A DNA stretch of 64,000 nt, from positions 1 through 64,000 of IMG/VR virus record IMGVR_UViG_3300035512_000144; one strand, given 5' to 3'. The DNA is from a virus. Lineage: Duplodnaviria > Caudoviricetes. Made by a program: the position numbers and the translations under genes. Below are positions 7,338 to 62,539 of this stretch, one piece after another. Below the pieces are notes generated by a model. It was not told where the DNA came from. It did no database searches and saw only the letters and a list, made by a program, of their open reading frames with translations. Numbering within the stretch: the stretch's first letter is position 1; the number at the start of each line of letters is the position of its first letter.

Positions 7338-8230
7338 ACATCTACCCCATATTCACTTAGTTTTTTCCGTTCATCTTCCGTCATTTCGGAATATACCAAA
7401 ACATCCTCGTCAATAATCGCTCCTTTCGCTTTCAGCATTTCAACAAACTCTTCCGGAACGTTTGCAAATCTTCCGGTCTTTTCTTCATCATGTTTCTTCG
7501 GAGTATTTCGTTTTAGATTTCCTCTTTTCTCCCATGTGACGATTGCAGACTTCCATGATTTCATTTTATTCTTTCCAACCATCCATCCGTTACTTTCATA
7601 GAATGCCACAAATGACTCAGCATCTACTTGGCTCCCGACTGATTCACAGTATTCTCTGACTTCATCAACCGTAGGAGTAAGAAATACGATTTTCTTTTTG
7701 GTAGAAGATTTATCTTCTACTTTTTCTTTCTCTCTTTCTTTTACTTCTTCTCTTTCTTTATCATTCTTTATATTCTTATATTCTTGTTTGTGTTCCGTCA
7801 GTGTCCTCGTTGGTGTCCTTTCTGTTGTTCCGTCAGTGTCCTCGTTGGTGTCCTTTTCACTGTGTCCATTAGTGTCCTCGTCACTGTCCTGCGAATACTG
7901 GTAAATGTCATAATTTACAATGGTTAGAAGCGTTCTATCCTTGTTGCTTTCTCGTTGCAACATATTGTCTTGTTCTAGTATTTTTAAAAACCGATACGTT
8001 CTGTTTTTACTCCACTTCCATTTTTCCGATAATTTCCGTATACTGGTCATAATTTGACCTCTATGGATAATGATTAGTTCGCCATTGTTCATCAATTTCT
8101 TTTCAGAATGGTTAGCGGTTAATAGCAAATCAACCCATGCGCTACGTTCATCAAATGGCTTGTCGATTTCCCATATCCAACATGATTGCAGCTTTCTATG
8201 TAGTTTTATCCAACCGTTCACATTTATCAC
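7334..8230 (-). CDS. Phage replication initiator (replisome organiser)
   Basis: GWIKLHRKL N-terminus; TIVNYDIYQ; C-terminal PTVDEVREYC..FVAFYESNGWMVGKNKMKSWK; internal iterons. Confidence 0.85.
   Translation of the reverse strand: MINVNGWIKLHRKLQSCWIWEIDKPFDERSAWVDLLLTANHSEKKLMNNGELIIIHRGQIMTSIRKLSEKWKWSKNRTYRFLKILEQDNMLQRESNKDRTLLTIVNYDIYQYSQDSDEDTNGHSEKDTNEDTDGTTERTPTRTLTEHKQEYKNIKNDKEREEVKEREKEKVEDKSSTKKKIVFLTPTVDEVREYCESVGSQVDAESFVAFYESNGWMVGKNKMKSWKSAIVTWEKRGNLKRNTPKKHDEEKTGRFANVPEEFVEMLKAKGAIIDEDVLVYSEMTEDERKKLSEYGVDV
7792..7881. repeat. Iterons of the phage origin inside the initiator gene
   Basis: 30-bp GTTCCGTCAGTGTCCTCGTTGGTGTCCTTT at 7792-7821 and 7827-7856, partial copy at 7871-7881, next to an AT-rich tract. 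Confidence 0.75.
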
Positions 8231-16944: not shown

Positions 16945-18867
16945 CTACTCCACCTCCTTAACAATCAATTCCTTGTCATTCGTCCTGCGAATCATTATCA
17001 CCTGTCTGTCAGTTTCGGGTATCTTGTCCAAATCAATACTTTCAGTGTCCTCAATAATGATTGGCAGATTCACGCCGTAAGCATTTTGGAAACCTAAGCA
17101 GATATCAATCTCCGCAAGAATGCGGTTGCCGTGATTCAGATTTCTGTAATAACTCTCGCCGTCAATCTTAGGTTCACATACAAGGTTTGTGTTGCCATTG
17201 ATAAGAGTCTCAAATAGGTCAAACTGTATGTACTGGAAAGCACCGTTAATATCCTGTTCAAGCAGCTTGTTTTTAGTCTTTTCAAATTCCGATAAGTAGT
17301 AAAGTATCTGCTCCTGGTCTGCAATCTCCTGCGCAATCTTGCGCTGTTCCGTTTGTAATTCCGCGATCCGTTCATCAATCGCCGTGTTGTTTTCAGATTT
17401 TGCAATCTGCTTTTCAACCGTACTTAACTGTTCGCGGATAGATTCTTCCTCTGACTGCAATTTCTCTCGGATTTCAGAAAATGAATTGCTTTCCTGCAAA
17501 AACTTTTCTTTATCGGCAATCTGCCGATTCAGTTCCGCGATATCTGCACGGTCTGAAAGGTCTACTGACTGCGGAAGTGCTGCTAATTGATTTTCAAGGT
17601 CTGCAATAGCTGTATTAAGCATTTCAAGGCTTTTCTTATGTTCTGCAAGTTCCAGTTCAAGTGTTCTCGATTTTTCTTGTTCAACCTCAATCTCAGATTT
17701 CAGACGCTTTCCTTTTTCTTCAATGGTTTTCAATTCTTCTGCCTTGTGGCTTTCAAATTCTGCCCTTAATTCGTCTTGTTTCTCTTTTGGGTATTCTTGT
17801 CCACAATACGAACAAACAAGGCTGTTTTCGTCAAATTCAAGTCTCTGTGTCTCTTTGTACTTTCCACGTAAATTTGAAATGTTTACTCGGTAACTTTCAA
17901 TTTTGAAAATTGAATTTGAAATGTCATTTTCCGTATCTGAAATTATGTCCTGCGTCTGTTGCAAAAGAAATTTCTTGTTACCAATTAAGCGTTCTATTTC
18001 CTGTCTTGCTTTGATATTTTCCTCATTCGCCTGTCGCACCAAATCGTTGACCTTGAATTTCAGTTCCAGTATTCCGTCACTTGCCTTGTCGATTTCCGCA
18101 AGCTGCGCAGATAAATCGTCCTGCTTTGACTTGACCTCTGCAAGTTGTTCTTTCAGTGCGTTTCGCGCAAGTTCCAATTCTGCAACGTCAATTTCCTCGC
18201 GTTTTTCTTCGTTTTCTTTGATTGCTCCAACGATTTCATTTAATCTTTGCTCATATCCGACAACGTTTCTTGTCTTACTGCCGTGAATTTTGTCATTACA
18301 CGTTTGTTTTATCTGCGCAACTGTTCCAAATTCTAATTCTGACCTTATAGGCTCAAATTCTGGAAACATATCAACAATTTCAGCGTTCTTTCTATTTCCA
18401 AAAACCTTTTCAATCAAATCTCTGCGTTTGGCAGCATCTAATTTGAAAAACGTCTGCGGATTCACGCATGATTCATTTGGAAACATATTTTTTAAATGTT
18501 CCGCATATTCTTTTGGTTTTTGAACAATTCCATTGATATAGCAGCTTGTGACATAACCCTGTGGCTCATTCTTTCGGTTGTATGCCATTCCGTAGGATTT
18601 CTTTAACATAACTCCGTTATCAAGTTCCAGTTCAACTTCTGTTGGCACGTTATCGTCAATAATGTCTTTTCCGTCCTTGTCATGCGGGCGTATGCCTGTG
18701 ATTTCCTTGCCGTTCTCGTCTTTCAGATTAAAAATCCAGTAGATAGCACGCTTTATGGTGCTTTTACCTGTCTCGTTGTGTCCTGCGATTTCTGTCCTAT
18801 CAAACAGGTCTGTTTCCAGTGACCGGTGCTTGCAGAAATTTGTCAGCCTTATGTGTTTGATTTTCAT
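16945..18867 (-). CDS. SMC/Rad50-like AAA ATPase with a long coiled coil
   Basis: GHNETGKST Walker A; central CSYCGQ hook; IIIEDTESID Walker B. Confidence 0.85.
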   Translation of the reverse strand: MKIKHIRLTNFCKHRSLETDLFDRTEIAGHNETGKSTIKRAIYWIFNLKDENGKEITGIRPHDKDGKDIIDDNVPTEVELELDNGVMLKKSYGMAYNRKNEPQGYVTSCYINGIVQKPKEYAEHLKNMFPNESCVNPQTFFKLDAAKRRDLIEKVFGNRKNAEIVDMFPEFEPIRSELEFGTVAQIKQTCNDKIHGSKTRNVVGYEQRLNEIVGAIKENEEKREEIDVAELELARNALKEQLAEVKSKQDDLSAQLAEIDKASDGILELKFKVNDLVRQANEENIKARQEIERLIGNKKFLLQQTQDIISDTENDISNSIFKIESYRVNISNLRGKYKETQRLEFDENSLVCSYCGQEYPKEKQDELRAEFESHKAEELKTIEEKGKRLKSEIEVEQEKSRTLELELAEHKKSLEMLNTAIADLENQLAALPQSVDLSDRADIAELNRQIADKEKFLQESNSFSEIREKLQSEEESIREQLSTVEKQIAKSENNTAIDERIAELQTEQRKIAQEIADQEQILYYLSEFEKTKNKLLEQDINGAFQYIQFDLFETLINGNTNLVCEPKIDGESYYRNLNHGNRILAEIDICLGFQNAYGVNLPIIIEDTESIDLDKIPETDRQVIMIRRTNDKELIVKEVE

Positions 18868-19133
18868 TGACTTTCTCCCTCCTTTTCAATCTCACTCCTA
18901 AACCGCGCATCTAACATAGAAAACAATAATGCGTGCGCTGTTTGGAACATCACATGATTCAGTTCCTTGTCCTGAATGGCGAACATCATGGTAGCCGCCT
19001 GTAAAAATAACGCGCTGTCACCCTTGTTGCGGTTCTGCTTTCTGTCCATCATATAAAGGTCATATATCGGACTGTCTTTGATTCTCTGTGCAAAATCTTC
19101 CATGTTTGTGTTCATTGACTTTTCTCCTTTCAA
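18864..19133 (-). CDS. Hypothetical protein
   Basis: Coupled ORF. Confidence 0.45.
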   Translation of the reverse strand: MKGEKSMNTNMEDFAQRIKDSPIYDLYMMDRKQNRNKGDSALFLQAATMMFAIQDKELNHVMFQTAHALLFSMLDARFRSEIEKEGESQ

Positions 19134-19163
19134 CTTGGACGGTCATTCGCCCCATAAAATCAT

Positions 19164-20261
19164 TTATTCAGTTTTCAACAGGTTTACAGCTCGTTTGATT
19201 TCCTCTTCCGTAATGAGTGCTGACTGGAAGCGTATAAGTTTCTGACCATCGTTTGACTTAAAAAGCCCATCTCCGTTTCCTCTAAGTGTTTCAGCCCCAT
19301 TTGAGCCAAGAATCATCCGACTGTTAAGCTTATCTACCGTTGCAAATCCGGCGCGGCATTGGAAGTTGCTTTTCAGCATTCCAGATATCACTTCCGCTTC
19401 AGGTCTTTGCGTTGATAAGATAACGTGGATTCCGCTTGCCCTTGCCTTTGCCGTAAGTCTTGATACATCATCCACAACCTTGTCTCCCTCCGATAAAATA
19501 AGGTCTGCCATTTCCTCAATATAGACCACGATCCGCGGTAGCTTGCCTTTTACGCTTGCGTTATATGAAGCAATATCTCGGCACTTATTCTTTGCAAATA
19601 ATTCATATCGCAAGTCCATTTCCTCACACAGAATTTCAAGCTTTTTCCGCGCCGTCTTACTTTCCGTGATAATACTGGAAACTTGCGGAACACCCTTATA
19701 AAATCCAAATTCAACCGTTTTCGGGTCTATCAGAATCAGCTTCAAATCTTCCTTTGAGTATTGAAGTAAAAGCGATAACACGATATTGTGTGCAAATACC
19801 GACTTTCCGCTACCAGTTTGACCACCGATAAGAAAATGTGGCATAGTCGCAAGGTCATATGTTATTCCGCTACCGTCTAATGCTTCTCCGATTGATATAA
19901 ACAATCCTTCCTTGTAGTTTTCAATCTTATTTAATTCCTCAATACAATCTGCAAATCCGTATGTTCCGCGTTCATTGTTTGGGACTTCAATGCACACATA
20001 CTTTCCGTCCTGCGCAATCCTGCAACCATTCGTATTAAATATGGAATTAAACTCACGAACCTTTCCGAGAAGAAATTTGATATAGTGCGGTTTAACTTCC
20101 ACGTCATATCTTGTTGCAGCCGTTCCGCAATAGATTCCTTTTACATCCGCGTCAATGAACAACTGACTTTGGAATATCCGTTCCAAATCTTCCTTGTTCA
20201 TGACCGTTTCTTCATGCTTAACCGAATGATTAAAGCAATCTAAAAATTTACTGTCTATCAT
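19164..20261 (-). CDS. Soluble FtsK/SpoIIIE-like ATPase (alpha-beta motor only; no TM or gamma domain)
   Basis: PHFLIGGQTGSGKS, LIDPK, VVYIEEMADL, STQRP, AETLRGNGDGL. Confidence 0.9.
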   Translation of the reverse strand: MIDSKFLDCFNHSVKHEETVMNKEDLERIFQSQLFIDADVKGIYCGTAATRYDVEVKPHYIKFLLGKVREFNSIFNTNGCRIAQDGKYVCIEVPNNERGTYGFADCIEELNKIENYKEGLFISIGEALDGSGITYDLATMPHFLIGGQTGSGKSVFAHNIVLSLLLQYSKEDLKLILIDPKTVEFGFYKGVPQVSSIITESKTARKKLEILCEEMDLRYELFAKNKCRDIASYNASVKGKLPRIVVYIEEMADLILSEGDKVVDDVSRLTAKARASGIHVILSTQRPEAEVISGMLKSNFQCRAGFATVDKLNSRMILGSNGAETLRGNGDGLFKSNDGQKLIRFQSALITEEEIKRAVNLLKTE

Positions 20262-20601
20262 TCTGATTTTCTCCTATCTGATATTTATTCATATCTAAAT
20301 ATGCTTCACGAGCATTTCTGTATAAGTCACCACGTTCCTGCTTAATGAATTGCAGAATCAACATATCCGATTCCCATACAGAATTATTGGGATTTTTGTT
20401 GTCACAATACTCCATCAACTTTTCATCCAATTTTGTTATGTCTATTCTGACCGAACCGCTTATTCTGTATAAAGCCCCTGCATCATTTGCCAGTTCTGAT
20501 ATAACCTTTTTGGACAACTTATATCTGATTTCGCAATCATCAAGTGTCGCAAATTTTACTATGCTATTGTCTTTTGGCTTAAATCTTCGTTTTGCTTTCA
20601 T
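20248..20601 (-). CDS. Excisionase-like winged HTH protein (DUF6462-like)
   Basis: CEIRYKLSKKVISELANDAGALYRISGSVRIDITKL. Start at 20601 (or 20610) follows AAGGA. The stop overlaps the FtsK start by 14 nt. Confidence 0.6.
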   Translation of the reverse strand: MKAKRRFKPKDNSIVKFATLDDCEIRYKLSKKVISELANDAGALYRISGSVRIDITKLDEKLMEYCDNKNPNNSVWESDMLILQFIKQERGDLYRNAREAYLDMNKYQIGENQNDRQ

Positions 20602-20639
20602 GTCAAACATCCTTAATATTGGTGTGCTTGTGTCGGCGC

Positions 20640-20934
20640 TTTCGATTACCTTGATAATCCGTATGGGTATCGTACAATGGTGGAATGAAGATTGCAGACA
20701 TTGTCGCTCGATATCCTTTATAAATCTTAATGGTCTCATACACACAGAAAAACCACTATGCACCTACTTCGATACCCTTATCATTTCGTATAGGTGTCTA
20801 CCTCTGTATGGTATCTGGCACAATGCAAATACCGTTCGATACCCTTGTGAAATCGTATGGGTCTCATCCACTTTTGTTTTGAACAATACAATATTCTAGT
20901 TCGATACCCTTGTGAAATCGTATGGGTCTCATCC
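20640..20934 (-). CRISPR. Mini CRISPR-like array A: 5 repeats, 4 spacers
   Basis: 36-nt GTTCGATACCCTTGTGAAATCGTATGGGTCTCATCC (+ strand) exact at 20834 and 20899. Degenerate copies (26-27/36) at 20640, 20706 and 20767. Spacers 30/25/31/29 nt. Confidence 0.85.
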
Positions 20935-21074
20935 CTCAAGAAACATCTGTTCTGTTTTTATACCCTTACTTAACAAGGTATATGCGTAGACGGTTTCTAT
21001 CAGCCATATAGACTAATCACTAGACGTTTTCCGCATAAGTTTTGAGTTTTACCTCTTAGGACAATCGTTTGCCC
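20935..21074 (-). ncRNA. tracrRNA/omegaRNA-like scaffold A
   Basis: Homologous to 22675-22811; 5' hairpin GGGCAA-ACGA-TTGTCC; anti-repeat-like segments; starts about 10 nt after the effector stop. Confidence 0.7.
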
Positions 21075-21084
21075 TTCTTCAATT

Positions 21085-22464
21085 TTATTTCAGCGCAAGA
21101 TACATCTCTCTTGCGTATCTCTGCCTATAATCATTTTCCGACCTGTCGATATCTTTTATTTTCAGCTTTACCACAGTACCGCTATCAGCAGATGCTAACT
21201 TTGTTTCTATCAGCGTTACCAACATAGCAGGAGCATTATGACCGACTGAATATCCTGCTTTGCTTTTCTTTTCATTTTCATTCTCAGTCTCTTTCTTCCG
21301 CATTGCCGCCGCTTGAAAGGGATAATCGTTGACCATAATCATATTTCCATGAGACAAAATCTCATTTGCGATCGCGATTCTTTCCAGTTTTCGATTTTCG
21401 GCTTGTACCCGGTGCAAATCTCGCAACTCTGCAACCGCCTTGTGATATCCGTTTGAAAAATTCCATTTCAGCCGATAACGATTACCGTCAAAATAAATGC
21501 CTTTCTTACAAGTGCCATCCTCGTTGAAATTTTCGGGATTCATAGCGCGTCTTGAATTGTCAAGGTACTGTTGTAAGGCTTTTATTTTCGTGTCATAGTA
21601 AATGTCTGTATCTGTATCTTCAAGGCTTATATCCGTAAAGGTTTCACCGTCTGACGTGTAGACCACATGAGACGTATCAATATACATTCCAACCTTGCCT
21701 TTATTGATAGGATTCTTTTCGTTGCCGTCCTTGTCATACTTGGTGACAGGTGCTTTATCAATCGTTATCTGAACGTACCATTTCAATGTTCCACGGACTT
21801 CTTTATTGATAATGCGCACCTGTTTATATGATTCCAAATCAAGCATTTCCAGTTTGTAATAGTCTTTCGGGTCTAACTTCAACGGCATTTTGATTGTCTT
21901 GCCATGTGCCGTACTGTAAACGCAATACAGTTTCCTGCCGTTTGCGTTCCCTCTGACCTTTTCCCAATCATCATCAACAATGCGTATTCCGCTTTTACCC
22001 TGTGAAACCATGGAATACCATTCGCCTTTACGCTTAAACTTTATCTGTCTGCCACTTCCGAAAAAGTAATCATCAAATGCCGCCCACATAGCAGGTGCAA
22101 TCGTGTTTCCTGCGACCTCACTCGGAATATTCATATTGAAATGTTTATAGAAACTCGTTGTGTCTCCGACAAATCCCATCTTGGAAAATCTGTACTCTTT
22201 CATAAGGTCATTCTTCGTCTGACACGCCGCCTTGAAATCAGCGTCTTTCTTTCTCTCCGCAGGCTCCATGTTTTTGTACGCATTAGCGATAACTTCCTTC
22301 GCTTGCTTGTATTCGGGTCTACGTTCCATTTCCCTAAGTTTCTTCAACTCATATCCCAACATGGAATTGTAAATTTGTCGGCAAATCTCAAACCGCTTTA
22401 CAAGTGCGTCTGACTGCCATTTCTCTGTTTTTAGTGGGATTGTGACTACACTCATTGCTCCCAT
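21085..22464 (-). CDS. Nuclease-dead TnpB/Cas12f-like RNA-guided DNA-binding protein
   Basis: Clostridial TnpB-family motifs: TIPLKTEKWQ..RQIYN, LDNSRRAMNPENFNEDGT.KKG, GYSVGHNAPAML. RuvC sites read GMYID, VNDY and REMY. No Zn finger. Confidence 0.85.
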   Translation of the reverse strand: MGAMSVVTIPLKTEKWQSDALVKRFEICRQIYNSMLGYELKKLREMERRPEYKQAKEVIANAYKNMEPAERKKDADFKAACQTKNDLMKEYRFSKMGFVGDTTSFYKHFNMNIPSEVAGNTIAPAMWAAFDDYFFGSGRQIKFKRKGEWYSMVSQGKSGIRIVDDDWEKVRGNANGRKLYCVYSTAHGKTIKMPLKLDPKDYYKLEMLDLESYKQVRIINKEVRGTLKWYVQITIDKAPVTKYDKDGNEKNPINKGKVGMYIDTSHVVYTSDGETFTDISLEDTDTDIYYDTKIKALQQYLDNSRRAMNPENFNEDGTCKKGIYFDGNRYRLKWNFSNGYHKAVAELRDLHRVQAENRKLERIAIANEILSHGNMIMVNDYPFQAAAMRKKETENENEKKSKAGYSVGHNAPAMLVTLIETKLASADSGTVVKLKIKDIDRSENDYRQRYAREMYLALK

Positions 22465-22506
22465 TGTTTTCTCCTTCTTTCATTTACTATCCGAGACGTG
22501 GATGTG

Positions 22507-22674
22507 GCTCGATATCCTTACAAAATAAGATACCTCTCGTACTCCGTCTACAAGCTTATAACATAACTGATAGTTCGATACCCTTGTCAAAAGATATCTT
22601 TCTCGTACAATGGTATGCCATAAATCCGAGTGATACCGGTTCGATACACTTGTGAAAATCTATACCTCTCGCAC
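22507..22674 (-). CRISPR. Mini CRISPR-like array B: 3 repeats, 2 spacers
   Basis: 36-nt repeats at 22507, 22573 and 22639 (period 66) share G(T/C)TCGATA..CTT with array A; both spacers are 30 nt. Confidence 0.75.
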
Positions 22675-22811
22675 CTCAAAGCACGTCTGTTCGATTTCGA
22701 GATATCCAGTTTACAAGGTGCTAGGTAGACGGCTTCTTCCATGCGTATAGCATAGACACTGACCGTTTTCCCATTGCGTTTTGCATTTCTGCTTCGGTCA
22801 ATCGTTTGACC
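22675..22811 (-). ncRNA. tracrRNA/omegaRNA-like scaffold B
   Basis: Collinear blocks shared with scaffold A: CTCAA, TCTGTTC, ACAAGGT, GTAGACGG, CGTTTTCC, GTTTTG, CAATCGTTTG. Perfect hairpin GGTCAA-ACGA-TTGACC. Confidence 0.7.
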
Positions 22812-22819
22812 GCTATAAT

Positions 22820-23143
22820 CTATTTATCCTTAATCCTCTCCAACTGCCTGCGAACCTTGTAATCTTTCGCCTGCTCGACCATGTCCTCACAGTTCAAAAG
22901 TACTTTCATTTGCGCAAGCATGACCTCTACGTCTGCGATTTCTTCAACCATGTTGTTGAAACAAGCACTCTTTTCAAACTCGTTGGTTTTCCGAATGCCG
23001 TAAAATTCAACGACTCCGCAACCTAATTCCTTTCTCCAAAACTTGTTGACAGCCTGCGTCAGCTCCGCCATTTCTTCAATGAGCTGTCTGCTCTGCGCGT
23101 CATAGCCGTAATGCCTTGCAATATGCTCAATTGCCTTACTCAT
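22820..23143 (-). CDS. MazG-like nucleotide pyrophosphohydrolase
   Basis: LIEEMAELTQAVNK ... EEIADVEVML. Confidence 0.75.
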   Translation of the reverse strand: MSKAIEHIARHYGYDAQSRQLIEEMAELTQAVNKFWRKELGCGVVEFYGIRKTNEFEKSACFNNMVEEIADVEVMLAQMKVLLNCEDMVEQAKDYKVRRQLERIKDK

Positions 23144-23321
23144 TATTTTTGTCACCTCTCCTGCTCTTGATGTAGTCGCAAGTGTCAAATATGCTCATTA
23201 CAAGCCAATACACACAGGCAAACGCCCATGCACACTTGGCTGTCGTGCCATCTAATACCGCCACATTCATAGCACTCAAAATCGCGATTGCATAACCGCC
23301 AATAATCTTCACTACTTCCAT
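23136..23321 (-). CDS. Small two-TM membrane protein
   Basis: Two hydrophobic stretches; coupled on both sides. Confidence 0.5.
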   Translation of the reverse strand: MEVVKIIGGYAIAILSAMNVAVLDGTTAKCAWAFACVYWLVMSIFDTCDYIKSRRGDKNNE

Positions 23322-23929
23322 TACCCTGTTTCCTCCAATTCTTCCAAAATTCCTACCGACATTTCATAAGCTGTTCGCGTTTCAGACACTCCGTTGTCCA
23401 GTGCTTTCAGATACTCCCTTGACTGCATTCTCCCAAATGTTGTCAGTTGATATCCCACTGGACATTCTGATATGTACCTCGCGTTCCTGCCCCATGCGAT
23501 ACACGGTATATAATCACTTCTGTTGTATTTCCTCCGCACAGCTAACAGAAAATCGCAAATTTCTCTTCCGCTAGGGGATAGTCTGTATACTGGTTGAGTT
23601 ACAATGCGACCGCGCAACATTGACTGGTTTTCCAAATACAGAACATTTACCGTCTCAATACATTGTGCGAAAATGTAAACTTTCAAATGCCTGTCTGCAT
23701 CTCTCCATGTGCGTATTTCCCCAGTAACAACTACATAATCGCCGCGCGATGCTTGCGCTCTTAACCGCTCTGATACAATCACACAGACTGTGTCAATCGC
23801 TCCGCTGCTGCGCATTGATTCAACGTAAAAGCTGTAAAAATTCTCGCCGCGGTTCGTGTCGTACAATTCCATGCCGGATATGGTTTCACCGCCAAACACT
23901 ATATGGTTGTTATCGCTCATGCCCCTCAT
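23321..23929 (-). CDS. ssb: Single-stranded DNA-binding protein (double OB fold)
   Basis: R.SGAIDTV..I; GEIRT; YRLSP.GREICDFLLAV.R.YNRSDYIPCIAWGRNA; GRMQSREY. Confidence 0.85.
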   Translation of the reverse strand: MRGMSDNNHIVFGGETISGMELYDTNRGENFYSFYVESMRSSGAIDTVCVIVSERLRAQASRGDYVVVTGEIRTWRDADRHLKVYIFAQCIETVNVLYLENQSMLRGRIVTQPVYRLSPSGREICDFLLAVRRKYNRSDYIPCIAWGRNARYISECPVGYQLTTFGRMQSREYLKALDNGVSETRTAYEMSVGILEELEETG

Positions 23930-24360
23930 TCACCTCTCCAACGATTTTTCCATCGTTAATCTCAAATGACATTCCGAGATTGTAGTGAATAACCTCTAAA
24001 TCCTCCAGTGACATCTTGTTAAAATCTGTAATAATCATTTCCTTTTCTCCCTCCTAAACTTGTCTAACATCTTGGTTTTTCCAGTTTATTTGTTGATAAC
24101 TTTCAAATAAAACTCTGTTTCTTCAATCAGCATCCAGTCATTAGCTTTCAGACTGTACGCTGATAAGCATTCTTTCTGACTCCTGGTCAGTCTCTTTGTC
24201 TGTTTCATCACTTCTTACCGCTTGAAATGATTATTGCAATGATTACCAACACAACAACCAGTAACATCACAGCGAAAATCGCCGCGGCAAATCCCGCCCA
24301 AAACGCATTCACATACACATCAATCACCTTCCTCTCTCACAATGTCCTTTACTCCGTCAA

Positions 24361-24792
24361 TCACCCTTTCGCGTCCACGTACTGCACAAAGCATCTGCCG
24401 CCTGTCAGTTTCATCCACTCGACACATTCCTCATATGTCGGAAAATATATGTCAATGCACTTGCCGGATTCGATACTCCCGATGCCGTCACCGTCAGCAT
24501 CACCTCCAAATCCAGTATCAAGACATTCAAAAATCCCTAACAGTTCGCCGATTTCTCCGTCATTATTCGCATAGACAAGTGCCGTCATGCCTAGCTTGTC
24601 CTGTGCCACCGCGCATATGCCTTTTCTGACCGCTGTGCCTGTTGCCGTAGTCGTTCCTTGGCAATAGGCTATCGTGTGCATCTTGATTACTTCCGGCTCC
24701 TGTTCCTCCGCATATGATGTGCTGGTGCATATAATAAGAAGAAACAAGACTAATGCTCCGGCGATTTTACAAGTTAATCTATGCGTTTTCAT
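24361..24792 (-). CDS. Secreted 3D-domain protein
   Basis: Signal-like N-terminus; TIAYC..TTTATG..GICAV; ECLDTG; CIDIYF. Confidence 0.65.
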   Translation of the reverse strand: MKTHRLTCKIAGALVLFLLIICTSTSYAEEQEPEVIKMHTIAYCQGTTTATGTAVRKGICAVAQDKLGMTALVYANNDGEIGELLGIFECLDTGFGGDADGDGIGSIESGKCIDIYFPTYEECVEWMKLTGGRCFVQYVDAKG

Positions 24793-25505
24793 GTCTCGCT
24801 CCTTTGCAACAGCTTCCTAATTCCATCAACGCCCTTTTGGTAGACAAGCGTTTTAATGCTGATACATTCCTCGCCGTTCCTCTGATAGTGCTGTTCGATT
24901 ACGTTAAACCAACCATTGTCAACGTACTTCTGATACGGCTGATTCCTTGTGTCAAGCACCTTGGCATTTCGCAGGAACTCAAACAAGTGGTTGCGACCAT
25001 ATCCTTTTATACCCAGTGCCTTTGCGACTTCCTGCATGGAAATTGCGTCCTTACTTCCGGCTACTGCGTCAAAAAATTCTGCCTTTGGATGCATTTCCTT
25101 GTTTTCAAGTGTCAGTCTTTCATTGTCCTCTACCGTTACAAGAAGTTGTTGCAGTGCCTCCTTGTATGTCTGTGGCAAGTGGTAGCCGCCTATCTTGCGG
25201 ATAGACGGTAGAACTTCGCTTGTTACCCAATGCTTAAACTTCTTTGCATTCGGCAATTTGCTACCGAGAACCAATCCATATAGCCCCGATTCGTTTATCA
25301 GCAACGTGTTTCTGTTTTGCGTTCCGTCAAACAATGGAACAATACGCCTGTCCTCTTCATCGGTATGCCGTTCAATATCTCGACTACCGTTTTGGTACTC
25401 CAGCTTTTCTGTTATGTCTTTGCCAATAAACCAAACGTCATTGTCAATCGTTACTGTTCGTATTTCTCCAAACTCTTCATTACTGAATATCTGTAATTCG
25501 TGCAT
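24789..25505 (-). CDS. Phage antirepressor (Bro-N + ANT/KilA-C)
   Basis: FGEIRTV..WFIGKD; INESGLY..SKLP.AKKFKHWVTSEVLPSIRK.G; PKAEFFDAV; GRNHLFEFLR. Confidence 0.92.
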   Translation of the reverse strand: MHELQIFSNEEFGEIRTVTIDNDVWFIGKDITEKLEYQNGSRDIERHTDEEDRRIVPLFDGTQNRNTLLINESGLYGLVLGSKLPNAKKFKHWVTSEVLPSIRKIGGYHLPQTYKEALQQLLVTVEDNERLTLENKEMHPKAEFFDAVAGSKDAISMQEVAKALGIKGYGRNHLFEFLRNAKVLDTRNQPYQKYVDNGWFNVIEQHYQRNGEECISIKTLVYQKGVDGIRKLLQRSET

Positions 25506-58253: not shown

Positions 58254-59447
58254 CTATTCACTAGCCTTAAAATTATAAATAGGCTTGATGATTTTTTGAA
58301 TTTCAACTGTGTCTTTTATGTTCTCCACAATTTCATCAATAGGCTTGTACGCCATAGGACTTTCATCAATCGTAGATTGGTTCACAGAGGTTGTGTAAAT
58401 ACCACTCATTGACTTCTCAAATTCTTCAAGCGATATATTCTCTTGTGCTTTTCTTCTGCTCATTATCCGTCCTGCTCCGTGTGGTGCTGAACAGTTCCAA
58501 TCCTCGTTACCTTTTCCGACTCCAATAATGCAACCATCTCGCATATTCATAGGGATTAAAAGTCTTTCTCCCGATCTTGCCGATATTGCACCTTTGCGAA
58601 CCATATTAGTGTTATGCTCAATGTAGTTATGAATTGTTTCAAAGTAGGTTACATTCTCCCAATCCATTTTTCTACAAATTGTAGCTGCCATTATTCGCCT
58701 GTTCTCAACCGCAAACTCTTGACATATTTTCATATCGTGCAAATAATCTTCTCTATCACTTCCAGTAAGATAGCACAACTCTTTAGGGATTTTAGGAGTT
58801 TCAGCTTTAAACCTCTCTCGCAATTCCTTGATAGCTTTTGAAATTTCCTTTTGCTTTCCGTTTGCTTTATATTCTGCTATCAGTTTGCTTTCTTCATCAT
58901 GTATCTTCTTACTTCCTTGCATATTACTAATAGCAAGGTTTTGATAATATTCGGCTACTTGCTTTCCTAAGTTTCTGCTGCCACTGTGAATTATGAGATA
59001 CTTGCAGCCGTCCTCGTCAATATCAACCTCTATGAAGTGGTTTCCCCCGCCTAAAGTGCCTAAGCTGTTCTCTAGCCAAGAAATATTTTTCAATTCATTG
59101 TAGCATTTCAACTCTTTCAGCTTTGGAAATTCCTGCACGCAAGATGTATTCACATTTCTACCGCTAGGAATGTATGCCCTTATCACCTTGTCAAGCACGT
59201 CTAAATCTATATCGATATATCCCAACTCAGTTGTGAGCATTCCGCAGCCTATGTCAACTCCGACAATGTTAGGTATAACCTTTTCGCCTAAATCTGCCGT
59301 AAAGCCAATAACGCAACCTGACCCAGCGTGAACGTCAGGCATAATTCTTATTTTGCAATCTTTGAATGCCTGCTGTTCAATCAGCGTGTTTATTTGTTCT
59401 AACGCTTGTGGTTCTATGTTTTCTGTAAAAATTTTCAAATCACTCAT
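58254..59447 (-). CDS. rtcB: RtcB RNA ligase
   Basis: MPDVHAG, VGVDIGCG, GGGNHFIE, HSGSR, HNY, PHGAGR. Confidence 0.96.
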   Translation of the reverse strand: MSDLKIFTENIEPQALEQINTLIEQQAFKDCKIRIMPDVHAGSGCVIGFTADLGEKVIPNIVGVDIGCGMLTTELGYIDIDLDVLDKVIRAYIPSGRNVNTSCVQEFPKLKELKCYNELKNISWLENSLGTLGGGNHFIEVDIDEDGCKYLIIHSGSRNLGKQVAEYYQNLAISNMQGSKKIHDEESKLIAEYKANGKQKEISKAIKELRERFKAETPKIPKELCYLTGSDREDYLHDMKICQEFAVENRRIMAATICRKMDWENVTYFETIHNYIEHNTNMVRKGAISARSGERLLIPMNMRDGCIIGVGKGNEDWNCSAPHGAGRIMSRRKAQENISLEEFEKSMSGIYTTSVNQSTIDESPMAYKPIDEIVENIKDTVEIQKIIKPIYNFKASE

Positions 59448-61882: not shown

Positions 61883-61972
61883 TGGAGAAAGGTGGAATCG
61901 AACCACCATTGTTTACCGCTTGGGAACAGATTTACAGTCTGCCGCAACACAACCAGTAGTTGCCTTTTCTCC
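61883..61972 (-). tRNA. tRNA-Tyr (GTA), slightly atypical
   Basis: Acceptor GGAGAAA/TTTCTCC; anticodon arm GCAGA-CTGTAAA-TCTGT; T arm GGTGG-TTCGATT-CCACC; long variable region; A at position 8. Confidence 0.85.
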
Positions 61973-62428
61973 GTATTAAACCGCCTTTCACGGTCTGCGC
62001 TCCGAAAAGTCGCAGGGCTGGGTTCCACACCGTGACTGTGATTTACTAATTGACCGCACGAACAAATACCATTGTCAGTTACTTTGGGCTTAACTTCCTT
62101 GCTCCATACGTGTCAAAAATTTTCGCGCCATGTAAACTACCCAGGTACAGACAAGTTCCATGTGACTTGCCGCCTTTAACTTCCGGCGCGTTATCCGGCA
62201 ATAACCGATTACCAAAATCTCTGATATCCCGAATAAAGTTTTCTCCCACATCTGCCTTGTGGTAGCCTATGTGGGCTTTCGTTAGGTAGGTAAATAAGGC
62301 ACCTTCACGCCATGCCAAGCGGATTTTAACGTCTTTTCTGACAATTCTTATTGGCTTTCATATAGCCATCTGCCGAAATTATCCAGCTAGTATTCACCCC
62401 GCGTATGTCGGTGTGGGACAATCTCGAT

Positions 62429-62504
62429 TGACAGTCTGCGGAATCGAACCGCAATCCTCCGGCACCACTGCCAAAATGCCGTTATGCTCCGTACACCAAC
62501 TGTC
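62429..62504 (-). ncRNA. tRNA-like RNA with a 12-nt anticodon loop
   Basis: Acceptor GACAGTT/GACTGTC; CGGCA-TTTTGGCAGTGG-TGCCG; T arm TGCGG-TTCGATT-CCGCA. Confidence 0.7.
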
Positions 62505-62539
62505 AACAGGAGGTTAAAAGGTGGGAAAGAATCCCAAAC

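What the first reader, a model, noticed from the sequence alone, without database searches (positions are those of the whole stretch)
21085..22464. All three RuvC catalytic positions altered and the Zn-finger/Nuc region deleted, yet the ORF is intact
Seen: KVGMYIDTS (Tyr at 21682-21684), IMVNDYPF and YAREMYLA. Known: active clostridial TnpBs read roughly VGIDIG, VE.MNF and QRD.YSA, so the changes are D>Y, E>N and D>E by eye alignment. A clean 459-aa frame with an RBS argues for domestication rather than decay.
Basis: partly seen in the sequence, partly recalled or inferred. Interest (0 to 1): 0.75.

Follow-up and report, generated by a model that had tools for sequence, protein, structure and literature searches.

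The report
Phage nuclease-dead Cas12-like guide-RNA module
A temperate phage carries an intact, strongly conserved relative of the TnpB/Cas12 DNA-cutting enzymes that has lost its cutting site but sits between two guide-RNA cassettes, so it most likely binds chosen DNA without cutting it.

Summary
ORF 21085-22464 (-) is an intact 459-aa TnpB/Cas12-like protein. Tyr261 replaces the RuvC-I Asp and Asn379 the RuvC-II Glu. The segment that holds the TNB-like region, RuvC-III and the C-terminal domain in its nearest active relatives has no counterpart.

"Domestication, not decay" is supported. dN/dS is 0.04-0.07. In 96 family members position 379 is Asn in 96 and position 261 is Tyr or Phe in 96.

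Two homologous cassettes flank it, each a ~100-nt structured scaffold RNA followed by a mini-array of 36-nt repeats. The scaffold shows covariation in 17 of 19 pairs. A 42%-identical homolog has an array of about 15 repeats, and the nearest active relatives also carry arrays.

The host element is a ~74-kb temperate phage with no Cas1 or Cas2. No targets were found.

Most likely it is an RNA-guided DNA binder or repressor. The kind is known (TldR, dCas12f, Cas12m). This lineage and its multi-cassette layout appear undescribed. The scan has noted phage-borne dead mini-Cas12 modules on at least 30 other genomes.

The parts
21085..22464 (-). Gene for the 459-aa RuvC-inactivated TnpB/Cas12-like protein (P0001), stop codon included
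   Evidence: ORF and translation. NCBIfam guided_TnpB E 1.4e-9 at 37.8 bits, below the 100-bit cutoff. PHROG 506 E 5e-20. hhalign to active relatives, probability 100%. dN/dS 0.04-0.07.
21682..21684 (-). Codon of Tyr261, at the RuvC-I Asp position
   Evidence: Y84/F12 in 96 family members, D 84/84 in active relatives.
21676..21678 (-). Codon of Asp263, a family-specific acidic residue two places after the lost Asp
   Evidence: D in 84 of 96 family members, where active relatives have G in 83 of 84.
21328..21330 (-). Codon of Asn379, at the RuvC-II Glu position
   Evidence: N 96/96 in the family, E 84/84 in active relatives.
22713..22812 (-). Upstream cassette: core of the structured scaffold RNA (four helices). 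It starts 8 nt after the stop of the preceding MazG-like gene.
   Evidence: Covariance model R1, 84.5 bits, E 6e-15. Pair counts. MFE fold.
22507..22712 (-). Upstream cassette: anti-repeat-like linker, then three 36-nt repeats (22639-22674, 22573-22608, 22507-22542) with 30-nt spacers. The last 'spacer' runs into the gene's RBS.
   Evidence: the repeat finder family D1. Spacer list. The fold pairs the linker with the 3' part of the first repeat.
20973..21075 (-). Downstream cassette: core of the structured scaffold RNA. It starts 10 nt after the stop codon.
   Evidence: R1, 85.9 bits, E 3e-15. About 71% identical to the upstream cassette over ~330 nt. Fold.
20640..20972 (-). Downstream cassette: linker, then five 36-nt repeats (20899-20934, 20834-20869, 20767-20802, 20706-20741, 20640-20675) with 25-31-nt spacers. 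The DUF6462 gene starts just after it.
19053..19153 (-). Remnant of a third scaffold (first hairpin and GAAA loop only), at the position where the related phage L081 has a full third cassette
   Evidence: R1, 23.4 bits, E 0.005 with filters off. Alignment to L081:3806-4070. Full third copy at L081:3821-3920, 68.9 bits.

Best explanation
The ORF encodes an RNA-guided DNA-binding protein that descends from a compact CRISPR-associated TnpB/Cas12-type nuclease and no longer cuts DNA.

Shown:
- The RuvC-I Asp and RuvC-II Glu are replaced by Tyr and Asn.
- The TNB-like, RuvC-III and C-terminal part is gone.
- The protein is under strong purifying selection.
- Its gene is flanked on the same strand by two homologous cassettes, each a ~100-nt four-helix scaffold RNA followed by a mini-array of 36-nt repeats and ~30-nt spacers.
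- Relatives carry one to three such cassettes or a long array.
- The element is a temperate phage with no Cas1 or Cas2.

Inferred:
- The cassettes are transcribed with the early operon and cut into guide RNAs, each made of a scaffold or tracr part paired to the conserved 3' end of a repeat, followed by the spacer.
- The protein loads these guides and binds matching DNA next to an unknown PAM/TAM.
- Because it cannot cleave, it blocks transcription or replication, as TldR, Cas12m and dCas12f do.
- The spacers in relatives are unique and none of the searches found a match. These covered the phage itself for the window's spacers and one host genome for L035's. I therefore take rival mobile elements as the more likely targets and host genes as the second choice.
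For: Loss of the catalytic residues and the C-terminal segment.

Selection and family: dN/dS 0.04-0.07. 161 homologs at E<=1e-3 in one library, and 1179 representatives at E<=1e-3 in the other.

Fold: the Atlas model's neighbours are TnpB-family clusters at TM 0.81-0.85.

Repeats and cassettes: eight 36-nt repeats at a 61-67 nt period on both sides of the gene. The two cassettes are ~71% identical over ~330 nt.

Scaffold structure:
- On an unfitted MAFFT alignment of 13 units, 79.2% of cells are paired against 59.6+-2.1 in shuffles (0 of 500 reach it), and 35-50% when partners are slid.
- 17 of 19 pairs have changes on both sides.
- RNAalifold alone finds helices 1 and 2.
- On the model-fitted alignment of 16 hits, 88.4% of cells are paired.
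- All 16 strong hits lie on the gene's strand, in the 8 dead-family loci, and 6 of 8 loci have two or more copies. The GAAA loop of helix 2 fits only that strand.

True arrays in relatives: L035 has about 15 repeats. L081, L082, L122 and L126 have 2-5 repeats with unique 29-31-nt spacers. 75 of 236 D/E locus rows have arrays, and weak scaffold hits fall between gene and array in 8 of them.

Context: no Cas1, and Cas2 only at 13.4 bits, below its cutoff. Phage genes.
Against: - No target was found for any spacer. The searches covered the phage itself (best exact matches 12 nt, chance level), INPHARED phages, PLSDB plasmids, the host MAG of L035 and the two related virus records.
- No RNA data exist: no sequencing run was listed.
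- The window's own repeats are heterogeneous, 64-100% identical to the reference copy, so some units may be inactive.
- The replaced site is itself conserved: N379 in 96/96, and a gained Asp263 in 84/96 where active relatives have Gly. This hints at a retained chemical role, not a merely dead site.
- No structure could be predicted here, so the geometry of the former active site is untested.
Confidence: 0.62

Rival explanations
1. The site is re-tooled, not dead. Asp263, the invariant Asn379 and Asp380 would form a rearranged centre that still cuts something, for example excising the guide cassettes from the polycistronic early transcript or nicking DNA.
For: Asn379 is 96/96. Asp263 is 84/96 where active relatives have Gly 83/84. 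Asp380 is 79/96. In the sister clade that keeps the TNB-length segment, the same two columns hold many different residues (A/A, N/Y, F/K and others), so the fixed Y/F and N in this clade look selected. The cassettes lie inside an operon and need processing. Altae-Tran et al. 2023 (PMC10691335, passages read) state that many TnpB groups with replaced catalytic residues may keep nuclease activity.
Against: The RuvC-III motif and the TNB-like segment, both part of the active centre in relatives, have no counterpart. Asn is a poor substitute for the catalytic Glu (established knowledge of RNase H-fold nucleases). No structure was available to test the geometry.
Confidence: 0.13
2. The protein is an RNA-guided recruiter, not a simple roadblock. 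It would bring a partner (sigma factor, recombinase, motor or transposase) to the target, as Cas12k and dCas12f-sigmaE do.
For: Such exaptations are known (PMC13472631 and PMC10691335, passages read). The window and its close relatives L081 and L082 keep the order effector, cassette, DUF6462 gene, FtsK-like gene. L035 has a sigma-factor-like ORF about 3 kb downstream.
Against: The neighbours differ across the 8 family loci examined, and no protein family recurs next to the gene. An earlier follow-up in this scan reached the same view for the FtsK pair (e1-5870823).
Confidence: 0.15
3. The repeats are protein-binding iterons or partition sites of the phage, and the TnpB-like gene is a decaying relic with no link to them.
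For: The window's repeats are degenerate and lie in two blocks around one gene, a layout also seen around plasmid partition promoters (recalled, not tested).
Against: dN/dS is 0.04-0.07. Compensatory changes occur in 17 of 19 scaffold pairs, with a strand-specific GAAA loop. Homologs carry long canonical arrays with unique spacers. Active relatives of the same protein carry arrays.
Confidence: 0.03

Closest known systems
CRISPR-array-linked nuclease-dead Cas12f cluster and dCas12f-sigmaE (Hoffmann, Wiegand et al., Nature 2026, PMC13472631; passages read)
   Same: It is a compact type V-like effector with inactivating RuvC mutations and a C-terminal truncation. It sits next to CRISPR arrays and a covarying guide scaffold, and a repressor role is proposed for the array-linked cluster.
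   Different: The lineage is different. Only a noise-level PADLOC Cas12 hit was found (E 0.0066), and a PDB profile search returned weak TnpB chains only and no dCas12f entry. Here the carrier is a phage of Clostridia-type gut and rumen bacteria. No sigma factor is adjacent in the window. Two to three scaffold-plus-array cassettes are spread through an operon.
TldR, TnpB-like nuclease-dead repressors (Wiegand et al., bioRxiv 10.1101/2023.11.30.569447; passages read)
   Same: It derives from TnpB, shows decay of the RuvC triad together with loss of the C-terminal ZnF/RuvC part, is prophage-borne in part, and has a guide RNA encoded beside the gene.
   Different: TldR uses a single omega-like guide and no CRISPR arrays. 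It is tied to fliC or oppF. Its targets are known host promoters. Here there are repeat-spacer arrays, no such gene partner and no known target.
Cas12m, subtype V-M (as described in PMC11656645 and PMC11013384; passages and abstract listing)
   Same: It is a small type V effector on mobile elements. It has arrays without adaptation genes and interferes by binding, not cutting.
   Different: There is no detectable sequence match here. As I recall it, Cas12m keeps parts of RuvC and processes its own crRNA without a tracrRNA; I did not test this. This system has a long scaffold RNA.
TranC and other compact tracrRNA-dependent type V effectors of Oscillospiraceae and Ruminococcaceae (bioRxiv 10.64898/2026.03.27.714800; passages read)
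   Same: These features fit the nearest active relatives: ~500-590 aa, D/E intact, 3-16 repeats at a 55-75 nt period, a scaffold between gene and array, no cas1/cas2 described, and the same bacterial groups.
   Different: Those proteins are active nucleases. Membership of my relatives in a named TranC clade could not be tested, because no reference sequence was at hand.
V-U24, V-U43 and V-U44 branches with altered catalytic sites (Altae-Tran et al., PNAS 2023, PMC10691335; passages read)
   Same: They are array-linked Cas12-U groups with non-canonical RuvC residues. V-U24 is said to sit beside an HTH protein, and the window has a small DUF6462 gene after the downstream cassette.
   Different: Identity with any of these groups is untested, because the group definitions are in supplements that I could not open. 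The small neighbour gene is not conserved across the family.

Membership tests
TnpB (IS200/IS605 OMEGA nuclease) | Intact RuvC D-E-D triad | tested here: not met
   Y261 and N379 sit at the Asp and Glu columns, and RuvC-III has no counterpart.
TnpB (IS200/IS605 OMEGA nuclease) | Curated model score (NCBIfam NF040570, Pfam OrfB_IS605 and the TNB model) | tested here: not met
   NF040570 scores 37.8 bits against a cutoff of 100. No OrfB_IS605 or TNB hit was found. HTH_OrfB_IS605 scores only 13.3 bits against a cutoff of 21.
TnpB (IS200/IS605 OMEGA nuclease) | Lies in a mobile IS with ends, a TnpA and several copies | tested here: inconclusive
   There is one copy in the 73.9-kb phage, and the flanks are guide cassettes and phage genes. 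I did not search specifically for tnpA or IS ends.
TldR | [quoted passage not shown] | tested here: met
TldR | A single omega-like guide RNA beside the gene, no CRISPR array | tested here: not met
   There are eight repeats in two arrays in the window, and arrays in L035, L081, L082, L122 and L126. L123 may be a single-guide form (my reading).
TldR | The guide matches a host promoter and represses it | not testable with these tools
   The host genome is unknown and no protospacer was found.
Type V CRISPR-Cas effector (Cas12 in the broad sense) | A single TnpB-derived effector gene next to a repeat-spacer array, conserved across relatives | tested here: met
Type V CRISPR-Cas effector (Cas12 in the broad sense) | A guide scaffold or tracrRNA with a conserved structure | tested here: met
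   The pairing of anti-repeat to repeat is seen only in single-sequence folds.
Type V CRISPR-Cas effector (Cas12 in the broad sense) | RuvC-dependent target cleavage | tested here: not met
   The catalytic residues are lost. Cleavage itself was not assayed.
dCas12f / Cas12f (V-F) | Sequence membership in Cas12f models or similarity to solved Cas12f or dCas12f chains | tested here: not met
   For the window protein PADLOC gives only Cas12_x2 at E 0.0066 with no stretch passing. Active relatives reach Cas12f or Cas12u4 at 1e-5 to 1e-13, in partial matches. PDB sequence searches gave no match, and the profile search returned no Cas12f chain.
Cas12k / CAST V-K | Tn7-like tnsB, tnsC and tniQ next to the effector | tested here: inconclusive
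   The neighbours that were annotated are a MazG-like gene, SSB, Ant, a DUF6462 gene, an FtsK-like gene and an SbcC-like gene. No Tn7 gene was among the 10 window ORFs scanned, and I ran no dedicated search.

The most novel reading that the evidence does not exclude
The conserved Y/F-x-D and N-D residues at the former RuvC site are not debris. They would form a re-tooled centre that matures guide RNAs from cassettes embedded in the 5' leaders of successive early genes. One phage transcript would then yield both messages and guides, and guide maturation would be coupled to expression of the flanking genes.

Together with its TNB-retaining sister clade (55 of 138 sampled representatives, none with D/E), the family would be a large, uncharacterised, phage-borne radiation of programmable DNA binders. 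They would serve conflict between mobile elements, with no adaptation genes of their own.
Probability: 0.15. Interest if true: 0.8.

Novelty: new variant of a known kind. Interest (0 to 1): 0.6.

Why it matters
Natural nuclease-dead RNA-guided proteins are recent discoveries: TldR, dCas12f and Cas12m. They show that cells and phages invented CRISPRi-like and CRISPRa-like control on their own. This family would be a further, separate origin of that trick.

- It arose inside a compact CRISPR-associated clade of gut and rumen Clostridia and is carried by temperate phages.
- The tree suggests a stepwise history: active with arrays, then catalytic residues lost with the TNB segment kept, then the TNB, RuvC-III and C-terminal parts deleted.
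- It has an unusual layout of two or three scaffold-plus-array cassettes placed in front of successive early genes.
- At 459 aa, with a defined ~100-nt scaffold, it is also a candidate small programmable DNA binder.

The biological pay-off depends on finding its targets, which I could not do.

Tried and rejected
Protospacer searches:
- The window's eight spacers against the whole 73.9-kb phage gave only 11-12-nt exact matches. I estimate about one 12-mer by chance, so this is no evidence of self-targeting.
- Both window cassettes against INPHARED phages gave nothing below E 0.5.
- The L035 array against phages and plasmids gave nothing below E 0.3. Against its own MAG nothing came below E 0.12.
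- The window arrays against the records of L081 and L082 gave repeat-level matches only. L122, L123 and L126 are not held and were not searched.

Other steps that led nowhere:
- Rfam on 19000-25000 found no family.
- The promoter and terminator scan found 7 promoter-like sites against 7.8 expected, so no promoter is assigned.
- Tandem Repeats Finder missed the arrays because the repeats are too diverged.
- PDB sequence searches with the protein and with an active relative found nothing. The profile search gave only weak N-terminal matches to TnpB chains.
- Sequencing runs: none was listed, and no RNA holder was listed.
- A search of 399 scored genomes of the class of L035's genome with the family profile found the short dead form only in that genome itself. 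The other 9 genomes with hits were D/E forms or unresolved.
- Conserved protein partner: rejected, because the neighbours differ among the 8 loci.

Literature. Five searches found no paper on this family. Supplements were closed, so V-U24 and the TranC clade lists could not be checked.

Caveats on counts:
- The tree is FastTree with local supports and midpoint rooting. It left out proteins under 400 aa and all but 19 of the 120 listed hits.
- The classes rest on MAFFT columns, so some 'other non-D/E' rows may be misaligned.
- The locus counts include duplicate fetches (for example L081=L202, L082=L203, L035=L125).
Full report
THE OBSERVATION

The minus-strand ORF 21085-22464 is open for 459 codons and has an AAGGAG box 6-7 nt before its ATG. 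Curated libraries barely see the protein:
- Pfam gives only a sub-threshold HTH_OrfB_IS605 match.
- NCBIfam guided_TnpB scores 37.8 bits against a 100-bit cutoff, covering profile positions 5-332 of 389.
- PHROG 506 'transposase' scores E 5e-20.

So it is a distant TnpB-type protein whose match stops before the C-terminal part of the model.

THE CATALYTIC POSITIONS

A word-indexed search found 161 homologs at E<=1e-3. An exhaustive search of 50%-identity representatives found 1179, of which 110 are at E<=1e-30.

Relatives of 486-590 aa at about 35% identity carry the motifs VGIDIGT, FxVExMNF and IQRDLYSAF.

Evidence for the first two positions:
- BLASTP with one such relative (P0116, E 2e-63) puts Tyr261 under the first Asp and Asn379 under the Glu.
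- In a 261-sequence alignment, the 84 relatives classed as D/E have D 84/84 and E 84/84 at these columns.
- The 96 short family members have Y84/F12 and N 96/96.

The third position is different:
- A profile-profile comparison of 21 family members with 20 active relatives has probability 100% and E 2e-100.
- It ends at residue 436 of the window protein. About 154 columns of the active profile are left unmatched: the Cys-less TNB-like segment, the RuvC-III motif and a C-terminal domain.
One MAFFT run places the RuvC-III Asp over Gln448, but that placement is not stable.
- 'Zn-finger deleted' also needs a gloss: the nearest active relatives have no cysteines in that segment.

The ESM Atlas holds its own model of this exact protein (pTM 0.76), and its nearest neighbours are TnpB-family clusters at TM 0.81-0.85.

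DECAY OR DOMESTICATION

Nei-Gojobori dN/dS values are as follows:
- 0.066 against the ortholog in L081.
- 0.046 against the partial ortholog in L082.
- 0.043 between L081 and L082.
- 0.07 between the more distant L122 and L126.

dS is saturated, yet dN is 10-20 times lower.

In a FastTree of 138 relatives the window protein lies in a 55-row clade (local support 99) with no D/E member. That clade splits in two:
- A 31-row group of the short form.
- A 24-row group (support 100) that keeps a TNB-length segment but has many different residues at the two catalytic columns.

The simplest reading is a stepwise history. The catalytic residues were lost first and the C-terminal part was deleted later, as described for TldR.

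One point cuts the other way. In the short clade the new residues are themselves fixed. Asn379 is invariant. Asp263, two places after the lost Asp, is present in 84 of 96 members where active relatives have Gly in 83 of 84. I keep a 're-tooled site' reading as a rival for that reason.

WHAT SURROUNDS THE GENE

The repeat finder shows eight copies of a 36-nt repeat at a 61-67 nt period:
- Five copies downstream of the gene (20640-20934).
- Three copies upstream (22507-22674).

On the gene strand the 3' third of the repeat is the conserved part.

The two flanks are homologous over about 330 nt at 71% identity. Each starts with a non-repeat stretch of ~140-160 nt that runs straight into the first repeat.

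The same stretch recurs next to homologous genes in seven other loci. On a plain MAFFT alignment of 13 units:
- RNAalifold finds two hairpins, with compensatory changes in 7 of 8 pairs.
- A four-helix structure that I drew by eye has 79.2% of cells paired. Shuffles give 59.6+-2.1, and 0 of 500 reach the observed value.
- Slid partners give 35-50% paired.
- 17 of 19 pairs have changes on both sides.

A covariance model built from this alignment was searched over about 1 Mb of fetched loci:
- It found 16 strong matches (E<=1.2e-6). All lie on the gene's strand, and all are in the eight dead-family loci.
- Three of the 16 copies were not in the seed alignment.
- On the model-fitted alignment 88.4% of cells pair. 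That alignment leans towards the model.

The second helix is capped by a GAAA-type loop, which fits only the gene strand. Single-sequence folds of both window cassettes pair the linker after the scaffold with the conserved 3' part of the first repeat. This resembles a natural single-guide arrangement. It is a prediction from folds, not a covariation result.

ARE THESE REAL CRISPR-TYPE ARRAYS

The evidence from relatives says yes:
- L035, a Bacillota MAG whose protein is 42% identical and has F/N at the two sites, has about 15 near-identical 36-nt repeats at a 64-66 nt period, starting about 110 nt after the gene.
- L081, L082, L122 and L126 have 2-5 repeats with unique 29-31-nt spacers.
- Two arrays in the same phage fragment (L082) share only the 3' ~16 nt of the repeat. 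This explains why the window's heterogeneous repeats need not mean decay.
- Six of the eight loci have two or more scaffold copies. L081 and L126 have three.
- L081 is syntenic with the window and has its third cassette between the FtsK-like gene and the SbcC-like gene. At that place the window keeps only the first hairpin and the GAAA loop.
- In several cassettes the last repeat is followed within about 30-40 nt by the RBS and start codon of the next gene. The cassettes therefore sit in the leaders of successive genes of one operon.

The nearest D/E relatives are also array-linked. 75 of 236 D/E locus rows have an array that usually starts about 200 nt after the gene (duplicates not removed). 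Weak scaffold-model hits fall in that gap in eight of them.

These relatives come from Oscillospiraceae, Ruminococcus, Christensenellales and similar MAGs. That matches the published description of compact tracrRNA-dependent TranC and type V systems, but I could not test membership.

THE ELEMENT

The 'genome' is one 73,939-bp virus record whose last ~147 nt repeat its start. It encodes the following:
- An integrase.
- A large terminase.
- A primase/helicase.
- An SSB.
- An anti-repressor.
- RtcB.
- Two tRNA-like genes.

The dead effector lies in the early and replication block. There is no Cas1, and Cas2 appears only as a 13.4-bit sub-threshold match in a 35-aa frame. The other family loci also look like mobile elements, with an integrase, a helicase, an RNase H-like gene and a RadC-like gene. 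No neighbour recurs across them. In 399 scored genomes of the class of L035's genome, the short dead form was found only in that genome.

TARGETS

None was found, and this is the main gap. Searches of the phage itself, INPHARED, PLSDB, L035's MAG and two related virus records gave only chance-level matches. No sequencing run was listed.

MECHANISM

I commit to an RNA-guided DNA binder that blocks transcription or replication.
- Shown: loss of the catalytic residues and the C-terminal part, purifying selection, a dedicated covarying scaffold on the gene strand, repeat-spacer arrays in the family, and a phage setting without adaptation genes.
- Inferred: transcription with the operon, processing into guides, loading, PAM/TAM-dependent binding and the biological target.

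Rivals are a re-tooled RNase or nickase site (0.13), recruitment of a partner (0.15), and iterons plus a relic gene (0.03).

COMPARISON AND NOVELTY

The kind is known:
- TldR.
- dCas12f, including an array-linked cluster noted but not characterised.
- Cas12m.
- Cas12k.
- V-U groups with altered catalytic sites.

This protein fails sequence membership in Cas12f models and in solved chains. It fails the TldR criterion of a single guide without arrays. It may correspond to one of the V-U groups, whose definitions I could not open.

Five literature searches found no description of it. The scan itself has noted phage-borne dead mini-Cas12 modules in at least 30 other genomes. A sequence look-up found look-alikes of this protein only in its own genome.

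I rate it a new variant of a known kind, with interest 0.6.

Noticed in passing
window 58254-59447 (-), 61883-61972 (-), 62428-62505 (-): The phage encodes an RtcB-type tRNA ligase (PHROG 1075, E 3e-134), a tRNA-Tyr and a second odd tRNA-like gene with a two-base anticodon call. This could be a tRNA-repair counter-defence set.
   Followed up: no
window 19053-19153 (-): A remnant of a third guide cassette (first hairpin and GAAA loop only) overlaps an 89-aa ORF (18864-19133). The related phage L081 has a full third scaffold there.
   Followed up: partly
window 7985-8060 (-): A weak scaffold-model hit (21.7 bits, E 0.013 with filters off) has a good first hairpin, far from the effector gene. It could be chance or another relic.
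   Followed up: no
window 22609-22638 and 20803-20833 (gene strand): Spacers U1 and D2 both start with the same five bases and carry its inverted complement plus two bases near the 3' end. This gives each a small internal hairpin. The spacing differs (16 against 14 nt), and I have no explanation.
   Followed up: partly
window 20248-20616 (-) and 19164-20261 (-): A small DUF6462 protein (Pfam E 6e-10) and an overlapping FtsK/SpoIIIE-like ATPase follow the downstream cassette. The trio is kept in L081 and L082 but not in more distant family loci.
   Followed up: partly
L035 8356-10095 (+): A 579-aa ORF with an N-terminal sigma-factor-like region (PHROG 351, E 9e-13) lies about 2 kb beyond the 15-repeat array of the F/N homolog. 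No such gene was seen among the window ORFs scanned.
   Followed up: no
L138, L060 (sister clade loci): Non-D/E relatives that keep the TNB-length segment (A/A and N/Y at the catalytic columns) also have weak scaffold hits on both sides of the gene, plus small arrays. The dual-cassette layout may therefore predate the C-terminal deletion.
   Followed up: partly
genome contig 1-147 and 73793-73939: The last ~147 nt of the record repeat its first bases, although the record is classed 'linear' by its source. It may be a terminal repeat or a circular assembly.
   Followed up: no
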